Below, one piece after another: positions 23,203 to 64,000 of a stretch of 64,000 nucleotides of DNA. Within the stretch, counting starts at the first letter, position 1. Every line of letters starts with the position of its first letter. Position numbers and translations under genes: made by a program. This stretch comes from Candidatus Zambryskiibacteriota bacterium (lineage in GTDB: Bacteria > Patescibacteriota > Minisyncoccia > Phycocordibacterales > WO2-35-19), in the NCBI GenBank assembly GCA_016932555.1, contig JAFGCQ010000004.1, forward strand, positions 990 to 64,989, given 5' to 3'. Under the pieces are notes generated by a model that worked only from the letters and a program-made list of their open reading frames with translations, had not been told where the DNA came from and ran no database searches.

Positions 23203-23211
23203 GTCAGCTTT

Positions 23212-23433
23212 TTAATTTTTAATTCTTTTAACATTTGATACATGTATCGGTGCGGCTTGATCAACTATTTTACCTTTTTCGTTACTCTTTTTTCTGCGTT
23301 GATGAACTTTTTTAATATTTATTCCTTCAATTAAAACCATGTCTGATTTAGGAAAGGCGCGTAAAATTATACCAGATTTACCTTTATCCTTACCAGTTAA
23401 TACTTTTACTTTATCTCCTTTTTTTACATGCAT
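23212..23433 (-). CDS. rplX: 50S ribosomal protein L24
   Basis: KOW motif [21 protein letters not shown]. Confidence 0.9.
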
Positions 23434-23438
23434 ACTCT

Positions 23439-23537
23439 CGAATATTACGAATAAGATCGAATAATACGAATCCTATTTTTGCTATTAATTTGATTGTTCT
23501 TTATTTGTAGCATTCGATTAAATTTGTGGTTATTCGC
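23439..23537. repeat. 99-bp intergenic repeat element (CGAATA-iteron type), copy A. It fills the rplN/rplX spacer.
   Basis: 98 of 99 positions are identical to 33288-33386. It contains TCGAATA units spaced 9-10 bp apart at one end and two inverted ATTCG units at the other. Confidence 0.9.
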
Positions 23538-23914
23538 TAGATGACTTCTGAAGCTAATGAAATAATGGCCTGATGGCCGGCCTCAGCAATTTCTCGAGGA
23601 ATAGGACCAAAGATTCTTCCTGCTCTTGGAGTAATTTCACCCTTCTTCTTATCTACTACAACTAATGCATTTTCATCAAATCGGATATAAGAACCATCTT
23701 TTCTGCGTAGTGGTGTCTTTTGGCGAATTACCATTCCTAATAGTACTGCTTTTTTCTTTATTTCTTTGCGAGGTTCAGCTTTTTGAACTGAAAATTTAAC
23801 CAGCTCGCCAATTCTAGCATAGCGCTTTTTAGAAGAACCTAATATTTTAAAAACCCGGCCGATTTTAGCACCTGAATTATCTGCTATTTTAACTATAGAA
23901 TTTGGCTGAATCAT
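23537..23914 (-). CDS. rplN: 50S ribosomal protein L14
   Basis: MIQPNSIVKIADNSGAK ... 125 aa. Confidence 0.9.
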   Translation of the reverse strand: MIQPNSIVKIADNSGAKIGRVFKILGSSKKRYARIGELVKFSVQKAEPRKEIKKKAVLLGMVIRQKTPLRRKDGSYIRFDENALVVVDKKKGEITPRAGRIFGPIPREIAEAGHQAIISLASEVI

Positions 23915-23940
23915 AATTTATGTTTTTACGATTTTACTAT

Positions 23941-24231
23941 TTACTTAATTATTATAAAATGCTTATCTTTTGATATTGGTTTAACTTCCTTGATTTCAAC
24001 TTTATCACCTATTTTCTTAGTATTACCAATATCATGGGTTTTATATTTTTTATTTACTTTGTAATATTTTCTGTATTTTTTATGTTTAACAAATCTTATT
24101 ACTGAAACCGTGCAAGTATCTTTCATTTTGTCTGATACTACAATACCCTTCAAGATTCTCGATCTGATTCCATTTTTCTTCTCTTCTGTTTTTTCTATTT
24201 TTTTATCCATAATTCTTAATTCATTATTCAT
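23941..24231 (-). CDS. rpsQ: 30S ribosomal protein S17
   Basis: S17 OB-fold core with an N-terminal extension. Confidence 0.85.
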   Translation of the reverse strand: MNNELRIMDKKIEKTEEKKNGIRSRILKGIVVSDKMKDTCTVSVIRFVKHKKYRKYYKVNKKYKTHDIGNTKKIGDKVEIKEVKPISKDKHFIIIK

Positions 24232-24406
24232 TATTTATCTTCGTCAAAATTCTAGCAATTTCTTTTTTCAGATTTTTCTGCCTTTTAACATCCTTACTTT
24301 TACTACCAGCTATACCAAATCTTATATCACGCAAGGCTAGCTTTTTTTCATCAAGCTCTTTTTGTAAATCTTGTGTGATATTTTTTTTTGGTTTTTCTTT
24401 TTTCAT
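24224..24406 (-). CDS. rpmC: 50S ribosomal protein L29
   Basis: 60-aa L29-like protein. Confidence 0.8.
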   Translation of the reverse strand: MKKEKPKKNITQDLQKELDEKKLALRDIRFGIAGSKSKDVKRQKNLKKEIARILTKINNE

Positions 24407-24413
24407 AATCGTC

Positions 24414-24434
24414 TTTTATTCGTATTATTCGATC
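24414..24434. repeat. Partial inverted copy of the CGAATA repeat (ttattcgtattattcgatcat) in the rplP/rpmC spacer
   Basis: Reverse complement of atgatcgaataatacgaataa. It matches the iteron end of the 99-bp repeat. Confidence 0.7.
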
Positions 24435-24444
24435 ATATTCACAG

Positions 24445-24864
24445 TTATTGGCGAGTAACTATTTTAGTTTTTACTGGCATTTTACAGCCACCTTTACGCA
24501 AAGATTCTCGGGCAATAATTTCCGAAGTGCTTTCAGCTTCAAAAAGAACTTGACCCGGTAAAATTCTTACTTGGTAACCTTCAATATCTCCTTTACCTTT
24601 ACCCATTTTCACTTCCGCCGGCTTTTTAGTAAAAGGCATATCTGGGAAAATACGGACCCAAACTCGGCCAGTTTTACCAAGATTTCGGCTAATAATTTTT
24701 CTAGCAGCTTCTATTTGATTAGAAGTAACTCGACCGGCAGAAATAGCTTTAAGACCATGTGAACCGAAAGAAATTTCTATCCCGCGAGTAGCTGGGCTTA
24801 TCTTGTTTGGATTTTTGCGCATTATATGCCATTTCCGATATTTAACTTTTTTAGGGAATAACAT
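24445..24864 (-). CDS. rplP: 50S ribosomal protein L16
   Basis: 139 aa, L16 pattern. Confidence 0.9.
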   Translation of the reverse strand: MLFPKKVKYRKWHIMRKNPNKISPATRGIEISFGSHGLKAISAGRVTSNQIEAARKIISRNLGKTGRVWVRIFPDMPFTKKPAEVKMGKGKGDIEGYQVRILPGQVLFEAESTSEIIARESLRKGGCKMPVKTKIVTRQ

Positions 24865-24895
24865 GATTTTAGGTTAATTGGTCAATTAAAATAAT

Positions 24896-25558
24896 TTATC
24901 CTTGCTTAGTAAAAATCTCACCCTTATAAATCCAAACCTTGATGCCAACTTTGCCGAGAGGCAATTTTGCTTCATAAAAAGCGTAATCAATGTCTGCCCG
25001 CAAAGTTTGCAAAGGAATTTGCCCAACCTTTTTACTCTCTACTCTAGCCATATTAGATCCTCCTAAGATACCAGAAAGAGTAATTTTCACACCTTTAACA
25101 TCACGGTTAGCAAAAGCTTTATCAATAATTGTTTTCATCACCCTACGAAAAGGCATCCTTTTTTCTAATCCTTCAGCTACCATCTGGGCAGCAATCATTG
25201 CACTAGACTCGGGTGACTTAACTTCTTTAATATCAATTTTTAATTCTTCGTTTAGATTAAATTTTTTGCGTTTTATAAAAACTAATATATCGCTTCTAAG
25301 TTTCTCCAACCCTTCACCATTGCGTCCAATAATAAAGCCGGGTCTAGATGATTCAATAATTATTCTAAAAGTTTTCACGCTTCTTTCTATTTCAATAGAA
25401 TTAACAAAAGATCCTTTCAAGCGTTTATATAAATATTCGTAAATTAAAACATCGCTTTTTAAATTTTCTTTATATTTATCTTTTACATCAAACCAGCGAG
25501 ACTTCCAATCACGAATGATGCCCAATCTATGAGAATATGGATGTACGGTGTGAGTCAT
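24896..25558 (-). CDS. rpsC: 30S ribosomal protein S3
   Basis: 220 aa with KH domain and S3 C-terminal domain. Confidence 0.9.
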   Translation of the reverse strand: MTHTVHPYSHRLGIIRDWKSRWFDVKDKYKENLKSDVLIYEYLYKRLKGSFVNSIEIERSVKTFRIIIESSRPGFIIGRNGEGLEKLRSDILVFIKRKKFNLNEELKIDIKEVKSPESSAMIAAQMVAEGLEKRMPFRRVMKTIIDKAFANRDVKGVKITLSGILGGSNMARVESKKVGQIPLQTLRADIDYAFYEAKLPLGKVGIKVWIYKGEIFTKQG

Positions 25559-25565
25559 AATAATA

Positions 25566-25913
25566 TTAGCTTTTAGTTTTTAATTCATCTGATAAAACAA
25601 GCTTAATTTTTGAGGTTCTTTTTTTGATGGGATGAGCAGCTCCATGAGCTACTGGGCGGCGCCTAAAAAGAGTTTGGCCTTTATTTACAGTGATCGATTT
25701 AATTTTCAAATTATCGGTTTCAATACCAATGTTTTTAGCATTAGCTAGAGCCGAATTTAAAAGCTTTTGCAAGGGGCCAGTGGTTTTTTTGGTAATAAAA
25801 TTTAGTCGATTTCTGGCTTCCTTTACTGACTTGCCTCGAATAGCATCTGCTACTAAACGGACTTTCCGAGGAGATTGGCGATAATTATTAAGCTGTGCTG
25901 CAACTTCAACCAT
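25566..25913 (-). CDS. rplV: 50S ribosomal protein L22
   Basis: KVRLVADAIRGKSVKEA motif. 115 aa. Confidence 0.9.
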   Translation of the reverse strand: MVEVAAQLNNYRQSPRKVRLVADAIRGKSVKEARNRLNFITKKTTGPLQKLLNSALANAKNIGIETDNLKIKSITVNKGQTLFRRRPVAHGAAHPIKKRTSKIKLVLSDELKTKS

Positions 25914-25918
25914 ATTTT

Positions 25919-26266
25919 TTATTTACCGCTAGTGTTTTCTGCAGCAGTTTTAGCAGCTTTAGCTTGATTTATTTCTTCTTCTTTCTTTTTAGCTTCAAGT
26001 TCTTTTTGCATCTTACCACCATGTTTGATGAATTTGCGGGTGGGAGAAAATTCGCCCAAGCGGTGTCCGACCATATCTTCACTGACTAAAACTTCGATGT
26101 GATCTTTCCCATTATGAACTCCAAAAGTAAAACCGACCATTTCTGGAGAAATTACACAAGATCTAGACCATGTTTTAATAACCTCGGTATCTTCCGGTTT
26201 TTTCCCTTCAATTTTTTTAAGAACCCTTACATCTACGTAAGGTCCTTTTTTTAGCGATCGAGACAT
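25919..26266 (-). CDS. rpsS: 30S ribosomal protein S19, with a K/E-rich C-terminal extension
   Basis: [12 protein letters not shown] ... HNGK ... GHRLGEF. The start is chosen at the internal Met matching the conserved S19 N-terminus. Confidence 0.85.
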
Positions 26267-26343
26267 TTTTTCAATATTAAACCCGCCTGGCGGGAATAGG
26301 TTATATACTAACAAATTAGGCCTCAAAGTCAATCCTTTTCTTA

Positions 26344-38595: not shown

Positions 38596-38647
38596 TTTTG
38601 TTTAACCCGTTAGTTTTTTAGTCTCTAACGGGATTCATATTTTTTAT

Positions 38648-55194: not shown

Positions 55195-55803
55195 CTATTC
55201 CAGTATTCCATCCAAGTTTACATCATACAAAATCTGTTCGGCAATTAAACGATAATTTACAAGCTCATTTTCCTTAAACCAAAGTTTTATCTCTTTATTT
55301 GCCTCCTCAGTCGAACCAGAAGCGTGTATCAAGTTGCGAACTGCCCGACCATCAGTGTCAGACACTATATATGAATCCAAAACAAAGTCTCCACGAATAG
55401 TGCCCACATCTGAAGTTCGGGGTTCTGTTCCACCAGTTACTTTACGCACCACTTCCACCGCGTGCGCCCCTTGCCAAACTAGCGCTACCACCGGACCTGA
55501 AGTCATATATTTAATTAAAGTTTCCAAAACTCTGTTTCCAGCTTCTATTGGGTTTTTTAAAGGGGGCTCTATGCCCTTTTTTTGATAGCTAGCGATAGCT
55601 TTTTCACCAGCTTTTTTTTGCCATTCCGGATCAACCGTGTAGTGTTTTCTTACAAAACTTGCATCAGGAACAACCATTTTTATCGCAATCATTTTTAAAC
55701 CCATCTTTTCATACCTTTTAATAATTTCGCCAATAAGGGATCTTTGTACACCATCGGGCTTTATAATTACTAGCGTTCTCTCTTTACTTGGATGATTATT
55801 CAT
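55195..55803 (-). CDS. ndk: Nucleoside-diphosphate kinase (long form, 202 aa)
   Basis: LVIIKPDGVQR, NLIHASGS (active-site His). Insertions relative to the canonical 140-aa enzyme. Confidence 0.75.
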   Translation of the reverse strand: MNNHPSKERTLVIIKPDGVQRSLIGEIIKRYEKMGLKMIAIKMVVPDASFVRKHYTVDPEWQKKAGEKAIASYQKKGIEPPLKNPIEAGNRVLETLIKYMTSGPVVALVWQGAHAVEVVRKVTGGTEPRTSDVGTIRGDFVLDSYIVSDTDGRAVRNLIHASGSTEEANKEIKLWFKENELVNYRLIAEQILYDVNLDGILE

Positions 55804-55838
55804 GATTCTAATGACTCTAAAATTTTTAATTTTTAAAA

Positions 55839-56633
55839 CTATCTTGTCAAAACTTCTATTCCATTCTTTGTAACCGCTACTGTATGCTCAAAATGAGCAG
55901 AAAGAGATTTATCACGAGTAATAAAGGTATAGCCATCAGAGAGACGCTTGATTTCACGACTACCTAAAGAAAACATCGGCTCAATAGCAATAACTAGCCC
56001 TTCTCTAAGTTCCGGCCCTTCGCCCCTCTCGGCTCGATTGGGTACATACGGTTCTTCATGGACACTATAACCTACCCCGTGACCTGACAAGCCTTCTATT
56101 ATGCCCAAATTGTATTTCATAGCCACTTGCATAATAGCCGCCCCAATATCACCTATATGGCCACCGATTTGCATAGTGTTAATGCCTTTTTCTAAAGCTT
56201 CATAAGTCGCTCTAATGAGAGTCGCGGCATCATCGCTAATTTTACCAACTGGTACAGTAATGGCTGCGTCAGTAATCATGGGTCTTACTTGTGGTGAACC
56301 AGTCAAACTATAAGTAAAACCCATATCCAAAGAAACGATATCTCCTTCAAATAAAATCCGATTGCCGTCATGATTTGGAATACCGTGAACAATTTCTTCA
56401 TTTATGGAAACACAAAGCGAGGCCGGGTAGGGTTTTGAAGCATCATCAGATTGATAGCCAAAAAAAGAGCCGACGCCACCCGCTTCATCGATAAGTTTTT
56501 CGGCGTAATCATTAAGCTCTTGAGTTTTAACCCCTGCTTTAACTTTTTGGGCCACTTTTTTTAAAATCTTCGCGTGAATCTTACCTCCTTCCCGCATCAC
56601 TGCTATTTCTTCTTCTGTTTTGTATTTGATCAT
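55839..56633 (-). CDS. map: Type I methionine aminopeptidase
   Basis: Pita-bread-fold metal ligand pattern. 264 aa. Confidence 0.85.
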   Translation of the reverse strand: MIKYKTEEEIAVMREGGKIHAKILKKVAQKVKAGVKTQELNDYAEKLIDEAGGVGSFFGYQSDDASKPYPASLCVSINEEIVHGIPNHDGNRILFEGDIVSLDMGFTYSLTGSPQVRPMITDAAITVPVGKISDDAATLIRATYEALEKGINTMQIGGHIGDIGAAIMQVAMKYNLGIIEGLSGHGVGYSVHEEPYVPNRAERGEGPELREGLVIAIEPMFSLGSREIKRLSDGYTFITRDKSLSAHFEHTVAVTKNGIEVLTR

Positions 56634-57220
56634 AATCCAATTTTGCTTATTATCTCTTTATGAACTTCATCGATTGTTTGTTCGCCGTTTATTTCTATAA
56701 ATTTATAATAGTGATTGTTTTTGAGATATTCCACAGTTGGTAAAACTTTTTCTTTAAACCAATCTAGCCTGTTTTTTATATCTTCTTCATTGTCATCAGT
56801 CCTGCCTCTATCTTTCATTAGCTTGGTAACCCATTCATTTGAAGCATTTATCGAAATAACCATTGGGTTCTCTCTTTCATAAAATTTTAAAGCATCACTC
56901 AGTATATACGCTTCACCAAGTTTACGAGGTGTACCATCAAAGAAAATAGTCACATCTGGAGAAAGCTCTTCAACCAAGCGCTTAGTCCAAATGTAGATAG
57001 GCATAAACTCAGGAACTAATTCACCCTGATCTAAAATTTTTTTGACTCTTTGGGATGTGAAAGATTGGGTTTGGGTAAGTTTTCTAAATCCTTCCCCAGT
57101 TTCTATATAGATAATTTTTTGCTCAGGATATTTTTTCTTAATTTCTTCCTGTAGGAGCTTAGCTTGGGTACCCTTACCGCAACCAGATGGCCCTAAAAAT
57201 ATGAAAGTTTGCGGTTGCAT
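56630..57220 (-). CDS. adk: Adenylate kinase
   Basis: P-loop GPSGCGKGTQ. The start is chosen at the ATG matching the conserved N-terminus (MQPQTFIFLGPSG). Confidence 0.8.
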   Translation of the reverse strand: MQPQTFIFLGPSGCGKGTQAKLLQEEIKKKYPEQKIIYIETGEGFRKLTQTQSFTSQRVKKILDQGELVPEFMPIYIWTKRLVEELSPDVTIFFDGTPRKLGEAYILSDALKFYERENPMVISINASNEWVTKLMKDRGRTDDNEEDIKNRLDWFKEKVLPTVEYLKNNHYYKFIEINGEQTIDEVHKEIISKIGL

Positions 57221-57264
57221 GAAATAAGTATAACATAAATCCCCCACTCGGGACTAGTCCTCGA

Positions 57265-57285
57265 CCTCCCCTTGATCAGGGGAGG
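57265..57285. repeat. GC-rich hairpin element hp1 (CCTCCCC-TTGATCA-GGGGAGG)
   Basis: Same stem/loop family as 57680-57702, 58407-58429 and about 32262-32287. Preceded by a GGACTAGTCC palindrome. Confidence 0.7.
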
Positions 57286-57305
57286 CAATGCGCGATAATT
57301 AGGAA

Positions 57306-57656
57306 ATGACAAGAGTTCATAATATCCGCAAACTTTCAGATCGCAGGAAAGAATTACGAAAAAACCAAACAAAAACCGAAGAAAAACTCTGGTGGTATTT
57401 GAAAGATAAGAGGCTGGGAATTAAATTCAGAAGACAGCACAGTATAGGAGGATATATTTTAGATTTTATATGCAAAGAAAAGAAATTGATTATAGAAATT
57501 GATGGTAGAGTACATTTGAAAAAAGATAATAAAGAATACGATAAAGTTAGAGACAAATATTTTGAAGAGTTAAATTATAAAGTTCTGAGATTTACGAATG
57601 ATGAGGTTGAAAATGGGGTTAAAGAGATTATTGATGTTATAAAGCGGTATCTTTAA
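57306..57656 (+). CDS. DUF559-domain endonuclease-like protein (Vsr/PD-(D/E)XK-related)
   Basis: LWWYLKDKRL ... RRQHSIGGYILDFIC ... IIEIDGRVH ... D..R...L...GYKVLRF pattern typical of DUF559. Confidence 0.65.
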   Translation: MTRVHNIRKLSDRRKELRKNQTKTEEKLWWYLKDKRLGIKFRRQHSIGGYILDFICKEKKLIIEIDGRVHLKKDNKEYDKVRDKYFEELNYKVLRFTNDEVENGVKEIIDVIKRYL

Positions 57657-57657
57657 C

Positions 57658-57702
57658 CCCCACCCCTCAATTCGTGTAGCCCTTCTCTTGATCAGGGGAG
57701 GG
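57658..57702. repeat. Left terminal inverted repeat (26 bp, CCCCACCCCTCAATTCGTGTAGCCCT) plus hairpin hp2 (CCCTTCTC-TTGATCA-GGGGAGGG)
   Basis: 25 of 26 positions match the reverse complement of 58426-58451. It begins 1 nt after the DUF559 stop codon. Confidence 0.8.
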
Positions 57703-57721
57703 AAAACCAAAATCATACAAA

Positions 57722-57748
57722 AAGAAAACCGCCATTCAGCGGTTTTCG
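57722..57748. terminator. Bidirectional terminator (AACCGC-CATTCA-GCGGTT with flanking A/T runs)
   Basis: Lies between the convergent DUF559 gene and ORF 57771-58322. Confidence 0.6.
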
Positions 57749-57770
57749 GTTGAAAATCATTGAAGAGCGA

Positions 57771-58322
57771 TTATATCAAAATCCTCCCATTATACTCATG
57801 GAACCCGATTTCTCCACTGGTAGCCGTGAAAAAAATATGCTCCATTCCAGCAAAATTTTCGAATCCGCCCCCGAGAAAAATAGTGTTTTCATACTTAAGA
57901 AGGTTTTTATCATAGTTTCCTACACGAGTATCATTATAAAAACCGTGTGTAGCTAAACCTCGTCCACCATGGAATTCACGTTGTTTGTAGGCGTAATTAA
58001 GCGCCATTTTCAAAAAACTGATCACTTCCTTAGGATAACATCCAGAATAAGACATCCACCACACGGCCATCCATCTTCCTCTGGGTCTGAACCTATAAAA
58101 GATAGTGGTTGTACCGGCGGAAAAATCTGAAAGCGGTGTCACACAATAGTGATCTACCACTTTGTAGTTACCGGATACAAAAGTGATTCTTTTGTATCCG
58201 CTAGATTCTATGACTTTAACAGAATTCTTTTTGTTTCCAGCATATCCGTCAAGCATAGCATCGAAGAATACTTTTTCTGCTTTTTGAATGATTTTCTTTC
58301 TCTGTTTGGACTCTAGTTCCAC
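57771..58322 (-). CDS. Hypothetical protein carried on a TIR-bounded cassette. GC-richer than the host genes.
   Basis: 183-aa ORF at about 42 percent GC against a background of about 33 percent. No recognisable motif. Confidence 0.45.
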   Translation of the reverse strand: MELESKQRKKIIQKAEKVFFDAMLDGYAGNKKNSVKVIESSGYKRITFVSGNYKVVDHYCVTPLSDFSAGTTTIFYRFRPRGRWMAVWWMSYSGCYPKEVISFLKMALNYAYKQREFHGGRGLATHGFYNDTRVGNYDKNLLKYENTIFLGGGFENFAGMEHIFFTATSGEIGFHEYNGRILI

Positions 58323-58406
58323 TGTTGGCTCCTTTCACCCATTAGGTCTGACTCAGGTTATACAACAATATAAAAATTAAAGCAAGAATAAAAAATACCG
58401 CGCGTT

Positions 58407-58451
58407 CCCTCCCCCGTCCAGGGGGAGGGCTACACGAAGTGAGGGGTGGGG
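58407..58451. repeat. Hairpin hp3 (CCCTCCCCC-GTCCA-GGGGGAGGG) plus right terminal inverted repeat (26 bp)
   Basis: The reverse complement of 58426-58451 is CCCCACCCCTCACTTCGTGTAGCCCT. It ends 1 nt before the secY stop codon. On the minus strand the hairpin plus a T run also serves as the secY terminator. Confidence 0.8.
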
Positions 58452-58452
58452 A

Positions 58453-59724
58453 TTAATATTCTCTTGCAGAGATTTGAGCATCAACTTTTTTAACGAGATC
58501 AAGAACCACTGAAACTACGATAAGAAGTCCTGTACCGCCTATAGCCACTGCGCTGATACCAGTAGCCGCCCTTACTATTAAAGGCAAAACAGCAATTAAT
58601 CCCAAGAAAATAGCGCCAATCATGGTTAAACGGGAAAGGATTTTGGCTATATATGAGGAAGTCGAGGAACCGGGTCGAACTCCCGGAATAAAAGCACCGC
58701 CTCTCTGTAAATTTTTGGAAAGATTCTCCGGATCAAAAGTAATAGCTGTGTAGAAATAAGTAAAAACAAAAACTAATAAGAAGTAGGCAATGCCATAAAA
58801 AATCTGGTTAGAAAGCAAAGCAAGTAGAAATTCAGAAATCTTTTGGATTATAGTATTGTCTACATTAGCTAAAAAGCGGATTATCATTTGAGGAAAAAGT
58901 AATATGGAAAGAGCAAAAATTATAGGAATCACCCCAGCTTGATTAACTCTTAAAGGTAAATAAGTGGAAACTCCACCATACATTTTATTACCTCTAACTT
59001 GTTTAGCGTAAGTTATCGGTATGGGTCTTTCTGCTTCAGTAATAACTACTACACCCCAAATCACTGCTATGGCAGCCGCCAGAAAGCCAATATACATCGG
59101 CAATTGAGATGGATCAAAAGCAAATAAAAGCTGGCTAGTCGCACTGGGTAAAATAGCAACAATGCCGGCAAAAATGATAAGCGAGACTCCGTTACCAATA
59201 CCAAATTCAGATACTAACTCACCAAGCCACATAAGAAGCATTGAACCGGCAGCAATTACTATAAGATTTGTTAGCAATTCAAAACCAGCAAGTTTACTTA
59301 AAACATTCTGATTTTGAAGAAGAATAATAAAAGCATAACCTTGCATTAAAGCTAGAGGCACAGTCAAAAATCTTGAATATTGAGAAAATTTTCTGCGTCC
59401 TAATTCACCCTCTTCTTGATACATAGCCTTGAGTTTAGGAAACATAACAGTCATAAGCTGCATAATAATAGAAGCGGTAATATATGGCGACACACCGAGC
59501 ATAATAATTGAAAGATTAGACAAACCACCACCCGAAAAGATATTTAAAAGTCCAAAGAAATCATTATCAGACATAAACTGCTCTAATTTAAAAGTATCAA
59601 TACCGGGAATTGGGATAGAGGCCATCAAACGGAAGAGAGCCAACATTACAAGGGTAAAAATTATTCTCTTTCTTAAATTTTTATCCCCTAAGACTAATTT
59701 TATTTTGTGAATAAAATTTTGCAT
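58453..59724 (-). CDS. secY: Preprotein translocase subunit SecY
   Basis: 10-TM SecY pattern. 423 aa. Confidence 0.9.
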   Translation of the reverse strand: MQNFIHKIKLVLGDKNLRKRIIFTLVMLALFRLMASIPIPGIDTFKLEQFMSDNDFFGLLNIFSGGGLSNLSIIMLGVSPYITASIIMQLMTVMFPKLKAMYQEEGELGRRKFSQYSRFLTVPLALMQGYAFIILLQNQNVLSKLAGFELLTNLIVIAAGSMLLMWLGELVSEFGIGNGVSLIIFAGIVAILPSATSQLLFAFDPSQLPMYIGFLAAAIAVIWGVVVITEAERPIPITYAKQVRGNKMYGGVSTYLPLRVNQAGVIPIIFALSILLFPQMIIRFLANVDNTIIQKISEFLLALLSNQIFYGIAYFLLVFVFTYFYTAITFDPENLSKNLQRGGAFIPGVRPGSSTSSYIAKILSRLTMIGAIFLGLIAVLPLIVRAATGISAVAIGGTGLLIVVSVVLDLVKKVDAQISAREY

Positions 59725-59729
59725 TCAAT

Positions 59730-60149
59730 TTATTTGCTTAAATTTTTGACCTTTTTTGAAGTTTCAATATTTTCAAAAATAAAGTTTTTCTTTATTTCTT
59801 TATCAGCTAAAATTTTTGCTTTCGGAATTCGGCCGTTCTTTTTATTTATAATACCTTTTTCTAACAAAACTTGATGATTTATCTTATCTCCTGCAGAAAA
59901 ATTTTTATCTAAAATGGAAAGCTTTATTGGCATAGCTTTTTCAAGTCGAGACTTAAGAAAATTTTTACCTCGACCTCTTAATTTTGGTAATTTTTTAATT
60001 ATATCACGCATTTCTGGTCTTTTTTTCCTGCCGGCCCTGGCATTTTGGCCTTTGGTGCCGCGACCAGAAGTCTTGCCGCGTTTACCCCCCCGACCAATTT
60101 TTTTGGCTTTCCGATTAGTTCTATTTTTTTTTAAATTATGGAATTGCAT
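59730..60149 (-). CDS. rplO: 50S ribosomal protein L15
   Basis: GRGGKRGKTSGRGTKGQ glycine/arginine-rich N-terminus. Confidence 0.85.
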   Translation of the reverse strand: MQFHNLKKNRTNRKAKKIGRGGKRGKTSGRGTKGQNARAGRKKRPEMRDIIKKLPKLRGRGKNFLKSRLEKAMPIKLSILDKNFSAGDKINHQVLLEKGIINKKNGRIPKAKILADKEIKKNFIFENIETSKKVKNLSK

Positions 60150-60177
60150 TGCACGAATATTACTAATAAGATTAAGT

Positions 60178-60789
60178 CTAAGAATTAATTTTTACTTTTT
60201 CTTTATTTTTCTCTTTCAGTTGTAAAAGAGCTTTTACCGCAGCTCTGGCAATATTAAGCTTGTTTTTTGATCTGGAAAGAATTTTTGAAGAAACTTCTTT
60301 TATCCCAGCCAGTTCGAGAACTACTCTCACTGCACTGCCAGCAATCACTCCTTTCCCAGGAGCAGGATTAAGAAATATTTCAGCACTAGCGTATTTGGTA
60401 TTTACCGGATGAGCAATAGAGCCTTTGTCAGTTAAAGATACTTTAATTATATGTTTTTTTGCGTCTCGGATAGCTTTTTCTATGGCAATAGGAGTATCAC
60501 CAGCTTTACCAATACCCACACCCACTCTGCCTTTTCTATCGCCAATTACTACCACAATACTAAAACTGAACCTGCGACCACCGGCAACTACTCTGGTTAC
60601 TCTTCTAATGTCTATTATTTTATTATCAAACTCTTGTTTAACCCTTGCCGGACGTCGAGAAGGTCGGCGTTCATTTTTTTGTCGAAATTTAGTTTTATTT
60701 TCATTTTTAAAATTGTTGTTTATTTTAGTTTTTTTATCAGTTTTTTCAACTTCTTTTCTATCTTCTTTTTTTATTTCTTTTTCTTCCAT
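60178..60789 (-). CDS. rpsE: 30S ribosomal protein S5, with a K/E-rich N-terminal extension. No rpmD (L30) between S5 and L15.
   Basis: RVVAGGRRFSF ... GIGKAGDTPIAIEKA S5 core. Confidence 0.9.
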   Translation of the reverse strand: MEEKEIKKEDRKEVEKTDKKTKINNNFKNENKTKFRQKNERRPSRRPARVKQEFDNKIIDIRRVTRVVAGGRRFSFSIVVVIGDRKGRVGVGIGKAGDTPIAIEKAIRDAKKHIIKVSLTDKGSIAHPVNTKYASAEIFLNPAPGKGVIAGSAVRVVLELAGIKEVSSKILSRSKNKLNIARAAVKALLQLKEKNKEKVKINS

Positions 60790-60800
60790 AATAATTTTAA

Positions 60801-61148
60801 TTAAAACTCTAAACCAGCCTTCCTGGCACCCTGGGCTAAAGCAGCAATTCTACCAGTATAAAGATAGCCCTCTCTATCAAATACTACTTTAGTGATTTTT
60901 TTGGTTTTAGCTTGTTTAGCGATTTCTGCCCCAACTTCACCTGCTTTATCTAAAACCGATTTACTTTTAATGTTTTTGCTAGAAGCAAAAGCTAAACTTA
61001 CACCTTTTTCATCATCAATAAGTTGAGCAGAAATATATTTATTCGATCTAAAAACAGAGAGTCTGGGTCTTTCTGCTACACCAAAAATTTTAGCTTTTAT
61101 ACGCTTTTTTCTCCTGTTTCTTTTTTCTGTTTTTAATTTAGTATTCAT
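60801..61148 (-). CDS. rplR: 50S ribosomal protein L18
   Basis: [19 protein letters not shown] pattern. Confidence 0.9.
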
Positions 61149-61153
61149 AACTT

Positions 61154-61705
61154 TTAAACTGTTTTCTTACCTTGTTTTCTTCTTATAATTTCATTCTCAT
61201 AACGAAAACCCTTGCCTTTATAAGGTTCCGGTTTTTTTAAGCTTCTTACTTTGGCAGTAAAAGCTCCGACTAACTCTTTATCAAAACCAAATATAGTAAT
61301 GAGATTCTTTTCAGCTTTTACTTCCAAGCCGTCAGGGATTAGAACTTCTACCGGATGGGAAAAACCCAGAGAAAGAATCAACTTATTGCCTGCCTGCGCA
61401 GGCAGGCCATTAACTTGGGATTTAAAACCTACGCCTTCTAATACTAATTTTTTTTCAAAACCATCATTAACTCCTTTTATCATGTTTTTTATATGAGAGG
61501 CATAAGTACCCCATAGAGCCTTAGTTTGATTATTTTCTTTGGGTATAGAAAGATTGATATGATTTTCTTCAATTTTAATTACTACATCATCACGAAATTT
61601 TCTTTCCAATAAACCTTTTGGACCTTTCACAAAAAAAACGTTATCTTTTAAGGAGACTTCTGTACCTGGTAGTATCTTTATTTCTTTTTTACCTATTCTT
61701 GACAT
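61154..61705 (-). CDS. rplF: 50S ribosomal protein L6
   Basis: Two L6 repeats, LSLGFSHPV. Contains an inserted LPAQAG palindrome. Confidence 0.9.
61389..61406. repeat. GC-rich perfect palindrome CCTGCCTGCGCAGGCAGG, copy 3. In-frame inside rplF, encodes LPAQAG.
   Basis: Identical to 1432-1449. The coding strand shares the 20-mer GGCCTGCCTGCGCAGGCAGG with the metzincin gene. Confidence 0.85.
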
Positions 61706-61731
61706 AATTATTTATAGTGAGCGTAGTCGAA

Positions 61732-62124
61732 CTACCAAATATTAAACAAATGTTCTCCTCCTAAATTTTCTTTTTTAGCATCAACATCGGTTCTAATACC
61801 TTCAGGAGTCGAAAAAATCGACATGCCAAAACCTTTCTTAAAAATTTTTATGTCCTTAGCTTTAGTATATAAGCGTCTTGATGGCTTAGAAATTCTTTTA
61901 ACTTCAGAGATTACCGGTTTTCCATCCTCTTGATATAATAATTCTACCTCCAGAGATTTTGTGCTGCCGCGACTTTTTTGACTTACATTACCAAGATAAT
62001 TTTTAACAGACAAAAGTTCAGCAATAGCAAGCTTTAAATTGGAAAAAGGCACGGAAACTTTTTCCTTTTTCATAATACTTGCATTCTTCACTCTTATTAT
62101 AAAATCTCCTATTGGATCGTTCAT
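61732..62124 (-). CDS. rpsH: 30S ribosomal protein S8
   Basis: MNDPIGDFIIRVKNA N-terminus. Confidence 0.9.
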   Translation of the reverse strand: MNDPIGDFIIRVKNASIMKKEKVSVPFSNLKLAIAELLSVKNYLGNVSQKSRGSTKSLEVELLYQEDGKPVISEVKRISKPSRRLYTKAKDIKIFKKGFGMSIFSTPEGIRTDVDAKKENLGGEHLFNIW

Positions 62125-62163
62125 ATATTTTCTAGGCAGTATCCTGAGCGTTAGCTGAAGGAC

Positions 62164-62349
62164 TTACCAAGAAGCTTTTTTAACTCCTGGAATTCTTCCT
62201 TCGTTAGCAAGTTCTCGAAAACAAATCCGACACAAATCAAAATCTCTCATATAACCTCTACTGCGACCACATTTAAAACAGCGTCTTACAGCTCTGGTTT
62301 TAAATTTAGGCTTTTTTTGAGCCCTTGCTATAACTGAAGTTTTTGCCAT
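62164..62349 (-). CDS. rpsN: 30S ribosomal protein S14 (type Z, zinc-ribbon)
   Basis: [20 protein letters not shown] CxxC...CxxC motif. 61 aa. Confidence 0.9.
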
Positions 62350-62364
62350 TTCTATTATTAAATC

Positions 62365-62385
62365 CGTCCGTCAGCCGACGGACGA
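62365..62385 (-). other. GC-rich hairpin (CGTCCGTC-GGCT-GACGGACG) between the RT stop and the rpsN start
   Basis: 8-bp G/C stem with a 4-nt loop, about 20 nt upstream of the rpsN ATG on the minus strand. Confidence 0.5.
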
Positions 62386-62419
62386 GACCTTCTAAAACTA
62401 ACAAATATATTAAAAAAAA

Positions 62420-63424
62420 TCAAGCGCTTTGCTGTCTTGAGATAACAACGAAGCGTTTACCGTGTCTATTTTTTGGAATGTTTCTATTTAGTTTTTGCAG
62501 TAGTTTAATTTTTAAATCTCTGGAACGGCAGTGATGTAAAAGACCGTTATAAGATGAGAAATTTTTGTCAGTCACCCTATTAAATATTCTTCTTTTAGTT
62601 TTAGTTCTCAAAACTCTATGGTACGGGAAGCAAATATAACCCAAATAATCGATGCCGCTGGCATATGTTTTAAGGATAATTTTTTCAGGGTGGATTTTTA
62701 GCTTCAAATTCTGCCAGCAAAAATCTCGAATCTTAGGTATGCAAGATTCCAGAAAATTTTTATCAGGATGCATCAAAACAAAATCATCAGTATATCTAAT
62801 ATAGCCCTTTACTTTTAAATCATGCTTCACGAACTGATCAAATTTGTTCATAAAAATATTGGCAAATATTTGAGAAGTCAGATTGCCAAGAGGTATGCCG
62901 CAATTGAAACTTTCAACAATGTCCTTGGTTAGGATGATAAGCTCTTTATCAAAAGTCTTTTCCTCTAATATCCGCAGAAGCTTATTATGATCGACAGATT
63001 CAAAAAACTTTCTTATATCCAACTTCAGCACCCAGATAGTTTTGCTGTTATTTCGGGAAATTTTGAGTCCTATTTTGTGGAGTCTTTTAACCGCAGCATG
63101 AGTGCCTTTATATTTTCTGGAAGACCAAGAGTCAAAGATAAATTTTTTATCCCACATTGGCTCTATGACTCTGATTATGGCATGGTGCAAAAGTCTGTCT
63201 CTAACGCTGGCTTTGTTAATGTGCCTCCTTTTGGGATCACTTATATAGAAAGAAAAATATCCGCCATGCCTGTAATTACCGCTTTTCAAATCCTCATGCA
63301 GTTTGAAAATGTTATCTTCCAAACCAAGCTCGAATTCCGCCACATCTTTCTTGCCTCGCTTATCCTTGCGAAACTCAGCCCAAGCGTCGAAGAGATTTTT
63401 TAATGAAATAATTTTTTCAAACAT
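62420..63424 (-). CDS. Diversity-generating retroelement (DGR) reverse transcriptase
   Basis: RT motifs: motif 4 GIPLGNLTSQIFANIFMN, which I recall as the DGR-type I/LGxxxSQ signature rather than group II intron QGxxxSP, and motif 5 YTDDFVL. About 335 aa with no maturase/endonuclease domains. The start is chosen at the second Met (MFEKIISLKNLFDAWAEF) to avoid overlap with avd. Adjacent Avd and an A-rich repeat. Confidence 0.8.
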   Translation of the reverse strand: MFEKIISLKNLFDAWAEFRKDKRGKKDVAEFELGLEDNIFKLHEDLKSGNYRHGGYFSFYISDPKRRHINKASVRDRLLHHAIIRVIEPMWDKKFIFDSWSSRKYKGTHAAVKRLHKIGLKISRNNSKTIWVLKLDIRKFFESVDHNKLLRILEEKTFDKELIILTKDIVESFNCGIPLGNLTSQIFANIFMNKFDQFVKHDLKVKGYIRYTDDFVLMHPDKNFLESCIPKIRDFCWQNLKLKIHPEKIILKTYASGIDYLGYICFPYHRVLRTKTKRRIFNRVTDKNFSSYNGLLHHCRSRDLKIKLLQKLNRNIPKNRHGKRFVVISRQQSA

Positions 63425-63808
63425 ATGAATAGAAACAACAATAATAAAACAGCGGAGCAAACACCATTCTTTCAAGCAGTTTATAAATTGTATCTATCAT
63501 GGTATGTCAGATGCGGACAACTGCCAAAGAAAGACAGGTTTACCATTGGACAGAAGACGGAAAACTTGCTTCTGGAAATTCTCCTGTTAACGGTGACTGC
63601 CTACCACACAAGCAGCTTGGATTTAAAGAGACAATCATTACTCAAAGCCAATACTACTCTTGAATGCGTTAAAATCAGCATTAGATTGGCAAAGGACATC
63701 AAAGCTCTGGAGCAGCATTGGTACATAGATTATCAGAGAAGAATCCAAGAGATGGGCAAGATGCTCGGCGGCTGGATTGCCAGCACTTACAACAAAACGG
63801 GCAAGTAA
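63425..63808 (+). CDS. avd: DGR accessory variability determinant (Avd), four-helix-bundle protein
   Basis: 127 aa. The C-terminus EMGKMLGGWIASTYNKTGK resembles the Bordetella phage Avd C-terminus (VGRILGSWIARVNRKGQAGK) as I recall it. Helical pattern matches the Avd/bAvd family. Divergent from and abutting the RT start. Confidence 0.7.
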   Translation: MNRNNNNKTAEQTPFFQAVYKLYLSWYVRCGQLPKKDRFTIGQKTENLLLEILLLTVTAYHTSSLDLKRQSLLKANTTLECVKISIRLAKDIKALEQHWYIDYQRRIQEMGKMLGGWIASTYNKTGK

Positions 63809-63835
63809 TTTGCCCGTTTTGTCTGCATGAGAGCG
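63808..63835. terminator. Hairpin (AACGGGCAA-GTAAT-TTGCCCGTT). Serves as the avd terminator and lies immediately 3' of the TR/VR-like repeat on the minus strand.
   Basis: 9-bp stem, followed by a T-rich run on the + strand. Confidence 0.55.
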
Positions 63836-64000
63836 ACTTCGGAGGGAAACGACACCGAGATTGTCATTCCGATTGTCGGGGTTATTGCCATTGACGTTCA
63901 CGCCATTACGGTCAGCATTGCCGACATACACCAGATTGCCGTCAGAGGCGAGAGTCGTTTCTGCATCACTCCATCCGGATCAAAGGCCGTAACCGGACAG
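63836..64000 (-). repeat. DGR template-repeat (TR)- or variable-repeat (VR)-like element, partial (runs off the window edge)
   Basis: The minus-strand reading is rich in AAT/AAC codons: ...SGWSDAETTLASDGNLVYVGNADRNGVNVNGNNPDNRNDNLGVVSLRS, resembling the C-type-lectin-fold VR/TR consensus (GGSW...NNPDNRNNNxGFR). An in-frame TGA upstream at 63980-63982 argues that this copy is the non-coding TR. Local GC is about 52 percent. Confidence 0.6.

What the first reader, a model, noticed from the sequence alone, without database searches (positions are those of the whole stretch)
62365..64000. Diversity-generating retroelement (RT + divergent Avd + Asn-codon-rich TR/VR repeat) inserted directly upstream of rpsN, with the repeat running off the window
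The reverse transcriptase at 62420-63424 carries the motif-4 signature GNLTSQ. I recall this as the DGR type, as opposed to the group II intron QGxxxSP. It also has YTDD and lacks maturase or endonuclease domains.

A 127-aa four-helix-bundle protein at 63425-63808 has a C-terminus that resembles Bordetella phage Avd as I recall it.

Just beyond it, the minus strand carries a repeat whose reading (...GGSW-like SGWSD...NGNNPDNRNDNLGVV) matches the C-type-lectin-fold VR/TR consensus.

The arrangement is unusual in three ways:
- avd is divergent from the RT, and their start codons abut (cat|ATG at 63424/63425).
- The TR/VR-like copy lies on the strand antisense to avd.
- An in-frame TGA sits 5' of the repeat, so this copy is probably the template repeat. 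The diversified target gene is outside the window, beyond 64000 or elsewhere.

The avd terminator hairpin at 63808-63835 sits exactly where DGRs place a target-recognition hairpin, 3' of the repeat. A second GC hairpin with a 4-nt loop lies between the RT stop and rpsN.

The DGR sits at the break point where the spc operon is split (rplE and rpsN are separated).
Basis: partly seen in the sequence, partly recalled or inferred. Interest (0 to 1): 0.8.

Follow-up and report, generated by a model that had tools for sequence, protein, structure and literature searches.

The report
Diversity-generating retroelement beside rpsN operon
This is a real diversity-generating retroelement (reverse transcriptase, Avd helper protein and template repeat) of the layout already known to be usual in the tiny CPR bacteria; the gene it hypermutates lies just past the window, and its place next to ribosomal genes is incidental.

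Summary
The finding is real and its main reading is right. Window 62420-64000 holds the core of a diversity-generating retroelement (DGR) in a Candidatus Zambryskibacteria MAG.

- **Reverse transcriptase:** its best solved relative is the Bordetella phage DGR RT (E 2e-41, against about 1e-15 for group II intron RTs).
- **Avd:** it passes Pfam's bAvd threshold.
- **Template repeat (TR):** a 116-nt TR lies at 63840-63955 (-).
- **Cognate variable repeat:** I found it on a second contig from the same sequencing run. It forms the C-terminus of an AAA_5 ATPase. It differs from the TR at 16 positions, all of them TR adenines (0 of 90 non-A positions differ).
- **Relatives:** four related cassettes show the same bias (150 of 162 mismatches at A). 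The variable-repeat domain of one of their targets models as a TvpA/FGE-like C-type-lectin fold.

The features called unusual are ordinary. TR-(avd)-RT is the published "B3" layout of about 90% of CPR DGRs. The rplE|rpsN split is shared by relatives that have no DGR at that site. The hairpin before rpsN belongs to the rpsN leader.

One less-described feature is a conserved, structured leader of about 240-300 nt 5' of the TR. It lies mostly outside the window and is absent from Rfam.

Verdict: a new member of a known kind, mis-annotated in NCBI as a group II intron RT.

The parts
62420..63424 (-). DGR reverse transcriptase, 334 aa. It has the motif-4 signature LGNLTSQ and the catalytic YTDD. 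Its stop codon TGA (62420-62422) lies inside the -35 box of the rpsN promoter.
   Evidence: Its best solved relative is the Bordetella phage bRT 8ub7 (E 2.1e-41, residues 3-285 aligned); group II and retron-type RTs score 1e-15 or worse. Pfam finds RVT_1 only. The group II intron RT/maturase model TIGR04416 gives 130 bits against a cutoff of 300. Orthologues 78-79% identical sit in complete DGR cassettes.
63425..63808 (+). Avd accessory protein, 127 aa. It is divergent from the RT and the two start codons abut.
   Evidence: Pfam bAvd PF22296 gives 60.9 bits (gathering score 40). NCBIfam DivGenRetAVD gives 67.2 bits, below its cutoff of 80. The same head-to-head layout occurs in L003, L004, L005 and L008. 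No ATG/GTG/TTG start is possible further upstream in the window's ORF.
63792..63822 (.). Perfect 13-bp stem with a 5-nt loop, spanning the avd stop codon and lying 17 nt 3' of the TR. It looks like a bidirectional terminator (A-run/T-run arms). It is a candidate 3' end of the TR RNA and a candidate Avd-binding stem-loop.
   Evidence: The inverted repeat is I1. The stem is kept in 9 related elements, with compensatory changes (for example columns 457/471, GC in 4 and AU in 4). Handa et al. predict Avd-binding stem-loops just downstream of the TR in 207 of 278 Avd-type DGRs.
63826..63838 (-). AGUCGCUCUCAUG, immediately 3' of the TR. It is the predicted 3' strand of a 12-bp long-range duplex with the invariant leader motif UAUGAGAGAAGAACU, which lies outside the window.
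   Evidence: This is RNAalifold helix 3. It is 100% paired in 9 sequences, but both strands are almost invariant, so covariation gives no test. It is analogous to the 'cPRT Stop' duplex, which pairs sequences upstream and downstream of the TR.
63840..63955 (-). Template repeat (TR) core, 116 nt, with 26 adenines and 10 AAY (Asn) codons. It is not part of a full-length gene.
   Evidence: It is homologous to the TRs of L003, L004, L005 and L008. Against the VR of the AAA_5 target on contig L024 (same sample) it shows 16 mismatches, all at TR adenines; 0 of 90 non-A positions differ, and the homology ends sharply at both borders.
63840..63859 (-). Adenine-free 3' end of the TR (CTCGGTGTCGTTTCCCTCCG). 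It is identical in TR and VR and sits where the IMH/IMH* element would be.
   Evidence: Read directly from the sequence. It is identical in L024 and nearly invariant across the TRs and VRs of relatives. TR and VR diverge immediately after CCTCCG.
63956..64000 (-). Last 45 nt of the conserved non-coding leader of the TR RNA. It includes the in-frame TGA at 63980-63982. The leader continues to about 64240 beyond the window, with a promoter-like TGGTAGAAT at about 64247-64255 (L001 35-43).
   Evidence: L001 extends the window by 289 nt. L001 29-300 is 84-88% identical to the VR-TR spacer of L003/L004, more than the 76% seen across the TR-avd-RT stretch.

Best explanation
The window ends inside a chromosomal diversity-generating retroelement of the CPR type, with layout TR-(avd)-RT.

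**Shown**
- A DGR-clade RT and an Avd gene sit head to head.
- A 116-nt template repeat lies upstream of them, on the same strand as the RT.
- The TR's cognate variable repeat ends an AAA_5 (MoxR/midasin-like) ATPase gene on a contig from the same sample, and it differs from the TR only at TR adenines.
- Close relatives carry the whole cassette in this order: VWA/CobT_C protein, a 137-aa protein, an AAA_5-VR target, usually a 327-331-aa VR target, a conserved leader, TR, avd (reverse strand), RT.
- The VR domain of a relative's 327-aa target is predicted to be a TvpA/FGE-like C-type-lectin fold.

**Inferred, by analogy with the Bordetella phage DGR**
- A promoter between the last target gene and the TR drives an RNA of about 380-450 nt: a structured leader, the TR, a short tail and a stem-loop.
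- RT-Avd binds this RNA and copies the TR into cDNA, misincorporating opposite adenines.
- The cDNA replaces the VR. The adenine-free 3' end shared by TR and VR guides homing.
- The result is recoding of about a dozen Asn/Tyr/Asp codons in the ligand-binding face of the target proteins.

The position 70 nt upstream of rpsN is a by-product of the cassette lying in a variable region beside an operon break that predates it.
For: **RT.** The best PDB match is bRT 8ub7 at E 2e-41, against 1e-15 or worse for group II and retron-type RTs. The alignment includes IGxxxSQ and the catalytic Asp residues.

**Avd.** It scores above Pfam's gathering threshold.

**TR/VR pair for this element.**
- The C-terminus of P0194 is 39 of 39 codons compatible with A-to-N recoding of the window TR; the next best protein reaches 36 of 39.
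- Its contig L024 comes from the same run (SRR13394437) as L001, which overlaps the window.
- At DNA level, 16 of 16 mismatches fall at TR adenines, 16 of 26 A positions are changed and 0 of 90 non-A positions are changed. By hand calculation, the chance that all 16 fall on A is about (26/116)^16, or 4e-11.

**Family behaviour.** Across 10 VRs in 4 related cassettes, 150 of 162 mismatches are at TR adenines. 52% of A positions changed, against 0.4-1.9% for the other bases.

**Cassette synteny.**

**Published layout.** B3 = TR-(avd)-RT in 90% of CPR DGRs (PMC5758913).

**RNA.**
- A conserved extended -10 promoter-like element precedes the leader.
- On the consensus structure, 97.4% of cells are paired. 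15 pairs show changes on both sides, against 6.8 +/- 1.6 in shuffles (0 of 500 reach it) and 0-5 in the slid controls.
Against: - The physical link between the VR contig (L024) and the window is inferred from three things: the same sample, a perfect match at non-A positions, and cassette synteny. It was not read directly. The deposited 65,335-nt NCBI contig could not be retrieved. A gap of unknown length separates L024 from L001.
- No population or read data were available, so present-day activity is not shown; only past adenine mutagenesis is.
- NCBIfam's Avd model scores below its cutoff, and Avd gives no phmmer hit to solved Avd structures.
- The RNA model rests on 9 fairly similar sequences, and its key long-range helix never varies.
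- No promoter or Shine-Dalgarno sequence is evident for the abutting avd and RT genes. The only candidate is a weak promoter-like site inside avd, on the RT strand.
Confidence: 0.93

Rival explanations
1. The cassette is a fossil. RT, avd and TR are retained but no longer diversify the target, and the A-only differences record past activity.
For: Only one VR variant was recovered for this element. In relative L003, 1.46 kb carrying two genes is inserted between the TR and avd. In L026 the position after avd holds only two short ORFs with no Pfam hit, and no RT gene was called. Cassettes of this family therefore do decay.
Against: In the window, the RT and Avd ORFs are intact and the catalytic motifs are present. 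The TR keeps 26 adenines and 10 AAY codons. All 90 non-A positions still match the VR, which argues against long neutral drift. The Logan unitigs break at or close to the VR (L024 ends 2 nt after its stop codon; L001 starts shortly downstream of where a VR stop is expected), as expected for a variable or repeated region.
Confidence: 0.1
2. The RT is a group II intron reverse transcriptase, as the NCBI record names it (MBN2093865.1).
For: The NCBI product name says so. TIGR04416 is the top NCBIfam hit, at E 8e-38.
Against: The TIGR04416 score is 130 bits against a cutoff of 300. Pfam finds no maturase, X or endonuclease domain. No group II intron RNA appears in Rfam at gathering score across the window. 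The PDB match to the DGR RT is 26 orders of magnitude better than to group II RTs. An Avd gene and a TR with an A-mutated VR are present.
Confidence: 0.01
3. The RT belongs to a retron or a defence-associated RT (DRT) system, and the Asn-rich repeat is coincidental.
For: There are weak hits to the Drt3a, retron St85 and UG-type RT models.
Against: All those hits fall far below the curated NCBIfam cutoffs (70.7 against 200 for Drt3a; 54 against 235 for the retron RT). The best PADLOC hit is the generic 'RT' model. The TR/VR adenine signature cannot be explained by these systems.
Confidence: 0.01
4. Insertion of the DGR split the spc operon between rplE and rpsN, and/or the DGR is functionally tied to ribosomal protein expression.
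For: The RT stop codon lies 70 nt from the rpsN start and overlaps the -35 box. [quoted passage not shown]
Against: Four other Zambryskibacteria loci (L010-L013) have the same rpsN-to-ndk half-operon. In them it is preceded by unrelated genes (RecG; HTH/TrmB-like; GmrSD-HNH), never by rplE or a DGR. Their rpsN promoter and leader hairpin align with the window's. In the L004 genome the DGR lies about 21 kb from rpsN, and in L008 it lies next to the trigger factor gene.
Confidence: 0.04

Closest known systems
CPR (Patescibacteria) DGRs of architecture B3, TR-(avd)-RT (Wu et al. 2018, NAR, PMC5758913; Paul et al. 2017, Nat Microbiol, known to me but not readable here; 'DGR clade 2' of Roux et al. 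2021, PMC8144416)
   Same: The order and strands of TR, avd and RT are the same. The host phylum is the same. The targets carry an AAA/midasin-type NTPase domain upstream of the VR, as in 'UVR4' of Wu et al.. The L004 relative comes from one of the groundwater genome sets of that era.
   Different: Nothing essential differs. This copy is from a newer MAG (proteins MBN20938xx), is annotated there as a group II intron RT, and lies directly upstream of rpsN. Wu et al. left the fold of UVR4 targets undecided; the model here points to a TvpA/FGE-like C-type-lectin fold.
Bordetella phage BPP-1 DGR (mtd-avd-TR-Sp-brt; bRT-Avd-RNA structures 8ub7 and related entries; Handa et al., bioRxiv 10.1101/2023.10.23.563531)
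   Same: The RT family is the same (E 2e-41), including the IGxxxSQ and YxDD motifs. An Avd partner is present. TR-to-VR differences are adenine-only. The VR sits at the C-terminus of the target. TR and VR share an A-free 3' end. A duplex is predicted between sequences upstream and downstream of the TR, and a stem-loop follows just after the TR.
   Different: avd is inverted and lies between the TR and the RT. There is no 140-nt spacer 3' of the TR, because that space is antisense avd coding sequence. Instead, about 240-300 nt of conserved, structured RNA lies 5' of the TR. The priming nucleotide is unknown. The targets are cytoplasmic-looking ATPase-linked proteins, not a phage tail fibre.
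Treponema denticola TvpA (PDB 2y3c), a DGR variable protein with an FGE-type C-type-lectin fold
   Different: Sequence identity is only 15%. Foldseek finds nothing significant. The N-terminal helical part of the CPR target has no counterpart in TvpA.
DGR-diversified NTPase-linked 'antigen sensor' or conflict systems (PNAS 2024, PMC10907252; abstract only, seen)
   Same: A DGR diversifies a C-terminal ligand-binding domain fused to an NTPase.
   Different: Here the NTPase is AAA_5 (MoxR-like) and is paired with a VWA/CobT_C protein. PADLOC finds no defence family. The analogy is only a lead.

Membership tests
Diversity-generating retroelement (DGR) | A reverse transcriptase of the DGR clade, with the [LIV]GxxxSQ motif in place of the group II QGxxxSP and with YxDD | tested here: met
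   The best PDB match is bRT 8ub7 at E 2.1e-41, with GIPLGNLTSQ aligned to GIPIGSLTSQ and RYTDD aligned to RYMDD. Group II RTs score 1e-15 or worse. No formal RT phylogeny was run.
Diversity-generating retroelement (DGR) | A template repeat and a variable repeat that differ (almost) only at TR adenines | tested here: met
   Window TR 63840-63955 against the VR on L024 (same sample): 16 of 16 mismatches at A, 0 of 90 non-A positions changed. In relatives, 150 of 162 mismatches are at A. Physical linkage of L024 to the window is inferred, not read.
Diversity-generating retroelement (DGR) | The VR lies at the 3' end of a protein-coding target gene, while the TR is non-coding | tested here: met
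   The VR ends 0 nt before the stop codon of the 722-aa AAA_5 gene. The TR has an in-frame TGA at 63980-63982 and no full-length ORF.
Diversity-generating retroelement (DGR) | An accessory protein (Avd in most DGRs) | tested here: met
   Pfam bAvd gives 60.9 bits, above the gathering score of 40. NCBIfam DivGenRetAVD gives 67.2 bits, below its cutoff of 80. There is no pairwise hit to solved Avd structures.
Diversity-generating retroelement (DGR) | An IMH-like, A-free, GC-rich segment at the 3' end of the VR, with a diverging counterpart after the TR | tested here: met
   The last 20 nt (CTCGGTGTCGTTTCCCTCCG) contain no A and are identical in TR and VR. The sequences diverge immediately afterwards: AAGTCGC after the TR and CTGA after the VR.
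Diversity-generating retroelement (DGR) | A GC-rich inverted repeat (target-recognition hairpin) downstream of the VR | not testable with these tools
   Contig L024 stops 2 nt after the VR. Wu et al. find such repeats in only 34% of DGRs, so it is not a required feature.
Diversity-generating retroelement (DGR) | Ongoing hypervariability of the VR within the population | not testable with these tools
   No read-level data were available. Only one VR allele was recovered for this element.
DGR variable protein with a C-type-lectin (FGE-like) fold | The VR forms the C-terminal strands of a CLec/FGE-like domain | tested here: met
DGR RNA elements of Handa et al. (cPRT Stop duplex; Avd-binding stem-loop just 3' of the TR) | Sequences upstream and downstream of the TR pair with each other, and a stem-loop follows the TR | tested here: inconclusive
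   A 12-bp duplex is predicted between the invariant leader motif and window 63826-63838. It is 100% paired but does not vary. The stem-loop at 63792-63822 has compensatory changes. Binding and priming were not tested.
Group II intron RT/maturase | An RT with a maturase (X) domain, encoded inside a ribozyme with domains I-VI | tested here: not met
   TIGR04416 gives 130 bits against a cutoff of 300. Pfam finds RVT_1 only. No intron RNA family reaches the gathering score in the window.
Retron / DRT defence reverse transcriptases | A match to the curated retron or DRT RT models, plus their partner RNA or genes | tested here: not met
   Every NCBIfam retron and DRT hit is far below its cutoff. 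The PADLOC top hit is the generic RT model. There are no partner genes; the neighbours are avd and rpsN.

The most novel reading that the evidence does not exclude
In the TR-(avd)-RT DGRs of CPR bacteria, the RNA scaffold that recruits RT-Avd, positions the primer and stops cDNA synthesis may lie mainly 5' of the template. It would be a conserved leader of about 240-300 nt with its own promoter, closed onto the 3' side of the TR by a 12-bp long-range duplex. In the Bordetella phage paradigm the equivalent is a 140-nt spacer 3' of the TR, so this would be a permuted DGR RNA. The published survey of DGR RNA elements examined only 40 nt upstream of the TR, so it could not have seen this leader. 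Rfam has no family for it.
Probability: 0.35. Interest if true: 0.5.

Novelty: new member of a known kind. Interest (0 to 1): 0.3.

Why it matters
**Annotation.** The public record names the RT a group II intron RT and the Avd a "four helix bundle protein". The locus is in fact a complete DGR core, and its target is an AAA_5 ATPase with a hypervariable lectin-like tip.

**Biology.** It adds one more case of CPR bacteria investing in targeted hypermutation of apparently cytoplasmic, ATPase-linked binding proteins paired with a VWA protein. The ligands of these proteins are unknown.

**Possible wider interest.** The conserved 5' leader of the TR RNA could show how DGRs with an inverted avd build their ribonucleoprotein. 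That is a lead for experiment, not a result.

**Genomic position.** The location next to rpsN, and the split spc operon, carry no special meaning for the DGR.

Tried and rejected
- **Pattern scans.** I searched for the TR with every A replaced by N. Genome contigs, metagenome contigs and viral contigs each gave 0 hits. The pattern does match the window itself. The source contig and its VR are therefore not in those collections.
- **Search of the window.** blastn and tblastn found no VR and no other cassette gene.
- **First target search.** A profile of the 327-aa targets returned 66 proteins. None was compatible with this TR; the best reached 38 of 47 codons. P0018 and P0022 share "LVYVG/LVFVG" with this TR but have non-A conflicts with it. 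Their contigs turned out to be other cassettes, which were useful as relatives.
- **Source contig.** The deposited NCBI contig (65,335 nt) could not be retrieved. Look-ups by RT, Avd and S8 returned only the 4,275-nt Logan contig.
- **L001 1-177.** I considered whether this stretch is the C-terminus of the target gene and rejected it. The stretch aligns to the non-coding VR-TR spacer of relatives, and the window has a 62-nt (non-triplet) insertion there.
- **Avd against PDB by phmmer.** No true hit.
- **Distant relative L026.** Single-sequence folding of its leader-TR RNA was not different from shuffled sequence (z -0.9). Hand comparison suggests the core of the long-range helix is kept (ACACU/AGUGU against GA-CU/AGUC), but I do not count this as evidence.
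- **L025.** This is a target homologue in a phage-like gene row with no RT nearby, so it was uninformative for the RNA question.
- **Literature.** Paul et al. 2017 and the supplementary tables of Wu et al. are not held.
Full report
**What is in the window.** The minus strand of 62420-63424 encodes a 334-aa reverse transcriptase carrying GIPLGNLTSQ and RYTDD.
- Pfam finds only RVT_1.
- The group II intron RT/maturase model reaches 130 bits against a cutoff of 300, and all retron and DRT models fall far below their cutoffs.
- Among solved structures the best match by a wide margin is the Bordetella phage DGR reverse transcriptase bRT (8ub7, E 2.1e-41, residues 3-285 aligned). The next matches are group II and retron-type RTs at about 1e-15.

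The plus strand of 63425-63808 encodes a 127-aa protein.
- It passes Pfam's bAvd threshold (60.9 bits against 40).
- It falls short of NCBIfam's Avd cutoff (67.2 against 80).
- It has no pairwise hit to solved Avd structures.

The two ATG codons abut. The minus strand of 63836-64000 reads ...L*SGWSDAETTLASDGNLVYVGNADRNGVNVNGNNPDNRNDNLGVVSLRSRSH, with an in-frame TGA at 63980-63982.

**Extending the sequence.** The RT, Avd and S8 proteins are on record on a 4,275-nt Logan contig from run SRR13394437 (L001). L001 is identical to window 60015-64000 and adds 289 nt beyond position 64000. The same proteins carry NCBI accessions from a 65,335-nt contig of a Candidatus Zambryskibacteria MAG:
- S8 is MBN2093863.1.
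- The RT is MBN2093865.1, named [quoted passage not shown].
- Avd is MBN2093866.1, named "four helix bundle protein".

That contig could not be fetched. The window holds no second copy of the repeat and no other cassette gene.

**Relatives.** Two GTDB genomes (L003, L004) encode RTs 78-79% identical to the window's. Further contigs were reached through target proteins (L005-L009). All show one cassette, in this order:
1. a VWA/CobT_C protein of about 755 aa;
2. a 137-aa protein;
3. an AAA_5 ATPase of about 720-790 aa whose C-terminus is a VR;
4. usually a 327-331-aa protein whose C-terminus is another VR;
5. about 260 nt of non-coding DNA;
6. the TR;
7. a stem-loop;
8. avd on the opposite strand;
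9. the RT, with the avd and RT start codons 0-1 nt apart.

Across 10 VRs in four cassettes, 150 of 162 TR/VR mismatches fall at TR adenines. 52% of adenines changed, against 0.4-1.9% of the other bases. The window's repeat aligns with the TRs of these cassettes, not with their VRs. It shares their post-repeat sequence AAGTCRCTCTCAT and their upstream TGA. In that register the TR core is window 63840-63955 (-), 116 nt with 26 adenines, and it lies entirely inside the window.

**The decisive test for this element.**
- A search with the AAA_5 target of L004 returned P0194, a 722-aa protein known only from Logan. Its last 39 residues are 39 of 39 compatible with A-to-N recoding of the window TR; the next best protein reaches 36 of 39.
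- Its contig (L024, 2,674 nt) comes from the same run, SRR13394437. It carries the end of the VWA gene, the 137-aa gene and the AAA_5 gene, and it stops 2 nt after the stop codon.
- At DNA level the VR and the window TR match over exactly the 116-nt core. There are 16 mismatches: A>G 7, A>C 6, A>T 3. All 16 are at TR adenines, and none of the 90 non-A positions differs.
- Homology is lost abruptly upstream of the core. It also ends right after CCTCCG, where the TR continues AAGTCGC and the VR continues CTGA.
- By hand calculation, the chance that 16 random mismatches all fall on the 26 adenines is about 4e-11.

The remaining gap is physical linkage. L024 and L001 do not overlap, and L001 starts roughly 35-60 nt downstream of where a VR stop codon is expected from the relatives. 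I cannot say whether a second, 327-aa target lies between them.

**The "unusual" features.**
- *Inverted avd between TR and RT.* This is architecture B3, TR-(avd)-RT, of Wu et al. 2018. [quoted passage not shown]
- *The stem-loop at the avd stop.* It is at 63792-63822, not 63808-63835, and it follows the TR, not a VR. It therefore cannot be the target-site hairpin. It is a perfect 13-bp stem with A-run/T-run arms, and it is conserved with compensatory changes in nine related elements. This fits a bidirectional terminator. It also fits the Avd-binding stem-loop that Handa et al. predict just 3' of the TR in 207 of 278 Avd-type DGRs, CPR members included.
- *The GC hairpin at 62365-62384.* It lies in the rpsN leader. 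Upstream regions of rpsN from four other Zambryskibacteria loci align with the window's from just upstream of a TTGAyT-N14-TGT-TAGyTT promoter-like element through to the start codon. All have a small GC hairpin at the same place. The RT stop codon falls inside the -35 box.
- *The rplE|rpsN split.* It is real in the window: rpsQ-rplN-rplX-rplE at 22.7-24.2 kb is followed by a PBP-family gene and pilus genes, while rpsN through secY, adk, map and ndk lie at 55-62.3 kb. But L010-L013 have the same rpsN-led half-operon preceded by RecG, by HTH/TrmB-like genes, or by GmrSD-HNH genes, and never by rplE or a DGR. In the L004 genome the cassette is about 21 kb from rpsN on the same contig. In L008 it lies next to the trigger factor gene. 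In L005 it lies next to a large serine recombinase.

The split therefore predates the DGR. The cassette behaves as an island that sits in different places in different genomes.

**How it most likely works.**

*Shown:* a DGR-clade RT, an Avd, a TR, a cognate A-mutated VR, and the lectin-like fold of the family's VR domain.

*Inferred from the Bordetella phage system:*
- The TR is transcribed.
- RT-Avd copies it into cDNA with random incorporation opposite adenines.
- The cDNA replaces the VR. The adenine-free 20-nt 3' end shared by TR and VR (63840-63859) serves as the homing anchor.
- In the one allele seen, 12 codons differ from the TR: ten Asn, one Tyr and one Asp.

*For the RNA itself:*
- The spacer between the last target gene and the TR is better conserved (84-88% identity to L003/L004) than the TR-avd-RT stretch (76%).
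- It begins after an extended -10-like element (TGnTAtAAT; TGGTAGAAT in this element).
- With ten further loci from a metagenome scan, it gives nine distinct sequences.
- RNAalifold predicts a multi-helix leader. It also predicts a 12-bp duplex between the invariant leader motif UAUGAGAGAAGAACU and AGUCRCUCUCAUA immediately 3' of the TR (window 63826-63838), followed by the stem-loop.
- On that structure 97.4% of cells pair. 15 pairs show changes on both sides, against 6.8 +/- 1.6 in shuffles (0 of 500 reach it) and 0-5 when partners are slid.
- The caveats are that there are only nine related sequences, that the structure was derived from the same alignment, and that the long-range helix itself never varies.
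- No Rfam family matches.

In this layout the 100 nt after the TR are antisense avd coding sequence. It is therefore plausible that the scaffold which the phage keeps 3' of the TR (the 140-nt Sp) sits 5' of the TR here. Handa et al. examined only 40 nt upstream of the TR and would have missed it. The priming nucleotide and the promoters of avd and RT remain unknown. A weak promoter-like site on the RT strand lies inside avd at 63499-63527.

**Verdict.** This is a bona fide DGR core of the usual CPR type, with its target just outside the window. It is a new member of a known kind. Residual interest lies in the mis-annotation, in the AAA_5/VWA-linked targets of unknown function, and in the conserved 5' leader RNA.

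Noticed in passing
window 62350-62423 (-): There is a conserved rpsN promoter-like element: -35 TTGATT at 62418-62423, then TGT plus -10 TAGTTT at 62395-62400. A 5'-UTR GC hairpin follows at 62365-62384 (8-bp stem, 4-nt loop). The same layout occurs upstream of rpsN in four other Zambryskibacteria loci, with different stem sequences (GCCC-GAGA-GGGT, GCCC-GAAA-GGGC). It may be a regulatory leader of the rpsN-led half of the spc operon.
   Followed up: partly
window 22666-26332 (-) and 55195-62349 (-); loci L010-L013: The S10/spc ribosomal cluster is split between rplE and rpsN in this lineage as a whole. The rpsN-led half lies upstream of the rplE-ending half on the same strand. The region just upstream of rpsN differs between genomes: RecG; HTH/TrmB-like genes; GmrSD-HNH; and here the DGR. 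No L30 gene lies between rpsE and rplO.
   Followed up: partly
L001 152-214 (equivalent to window coordinates 64076-64138, beyond the window); window 38606-38635; L026 about 4980-5090: The DGR leader of this element carries a 62-63-nt insertion that relatives lack. Its ends are the inverted repeat CCCCGTTAGAG...CTCTAACGGGG. A shorter hairpin with the same stem motif (CCCGTTAG...CTAACGGG) lies in an intergenic region at 38.6 kb. A similar palindrome (CCCCGTTAGAAG...CTTCTAACGGGG) sits upstream of the DGR promoter in the Azambacteria locus L026. This may be a small REP/MITE-like palindromic element.
   Followed up: partly
window 57771-58322 (-): A 183-aa ORF with a weak DUF5680 match lies between secY and adk. 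Relatives L010-L013 go from secY (or rplO) to adk with no such gene. A DUF5680 gene also lies near the DGR cassette in L008.
   Followed up: no
L003 8235-9390 and 3031-3963: In relative L003, two reverse-strand genes are inserted between the TR and avd, about 1.46 kb in all. One of them, and another gene between two target genes, carries the Fic motif HPFxDGNGR. The TR is thereby moved about 1.8 kb from the RT.
   Followed up: no
L005 2856-4451; L008 6280-17642: The whole cassette of about 9-10 kb sits in different chromosomal contexts. In L005 it lies next to a large serine recombinase. In L008 it lies after clpP and a methyltransferase gene and before the trigger factor gene, whereas clpP and tig are adjacent in L011. 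It may move as an island.
   Followed up: partly
L025 4001-4873: A 290-aa homologue of the small target protein (P0037, ending ...LGVVSVR) lies in a row of many short same-strand ORFs with HNH and MT-A70 genes, which looks phage-like. No RT or avd lies within 4 kb.
   Followed up: no
window 62420-63808: The NCBI annotation of the source MAG names the RT a group II intron RT domain protein. It calls Avd a 106-aa four-helix-bundle protein, which implies a later start codon than the conserved ATG at 63425. The DGR is not annotated.
   Followed up: yes
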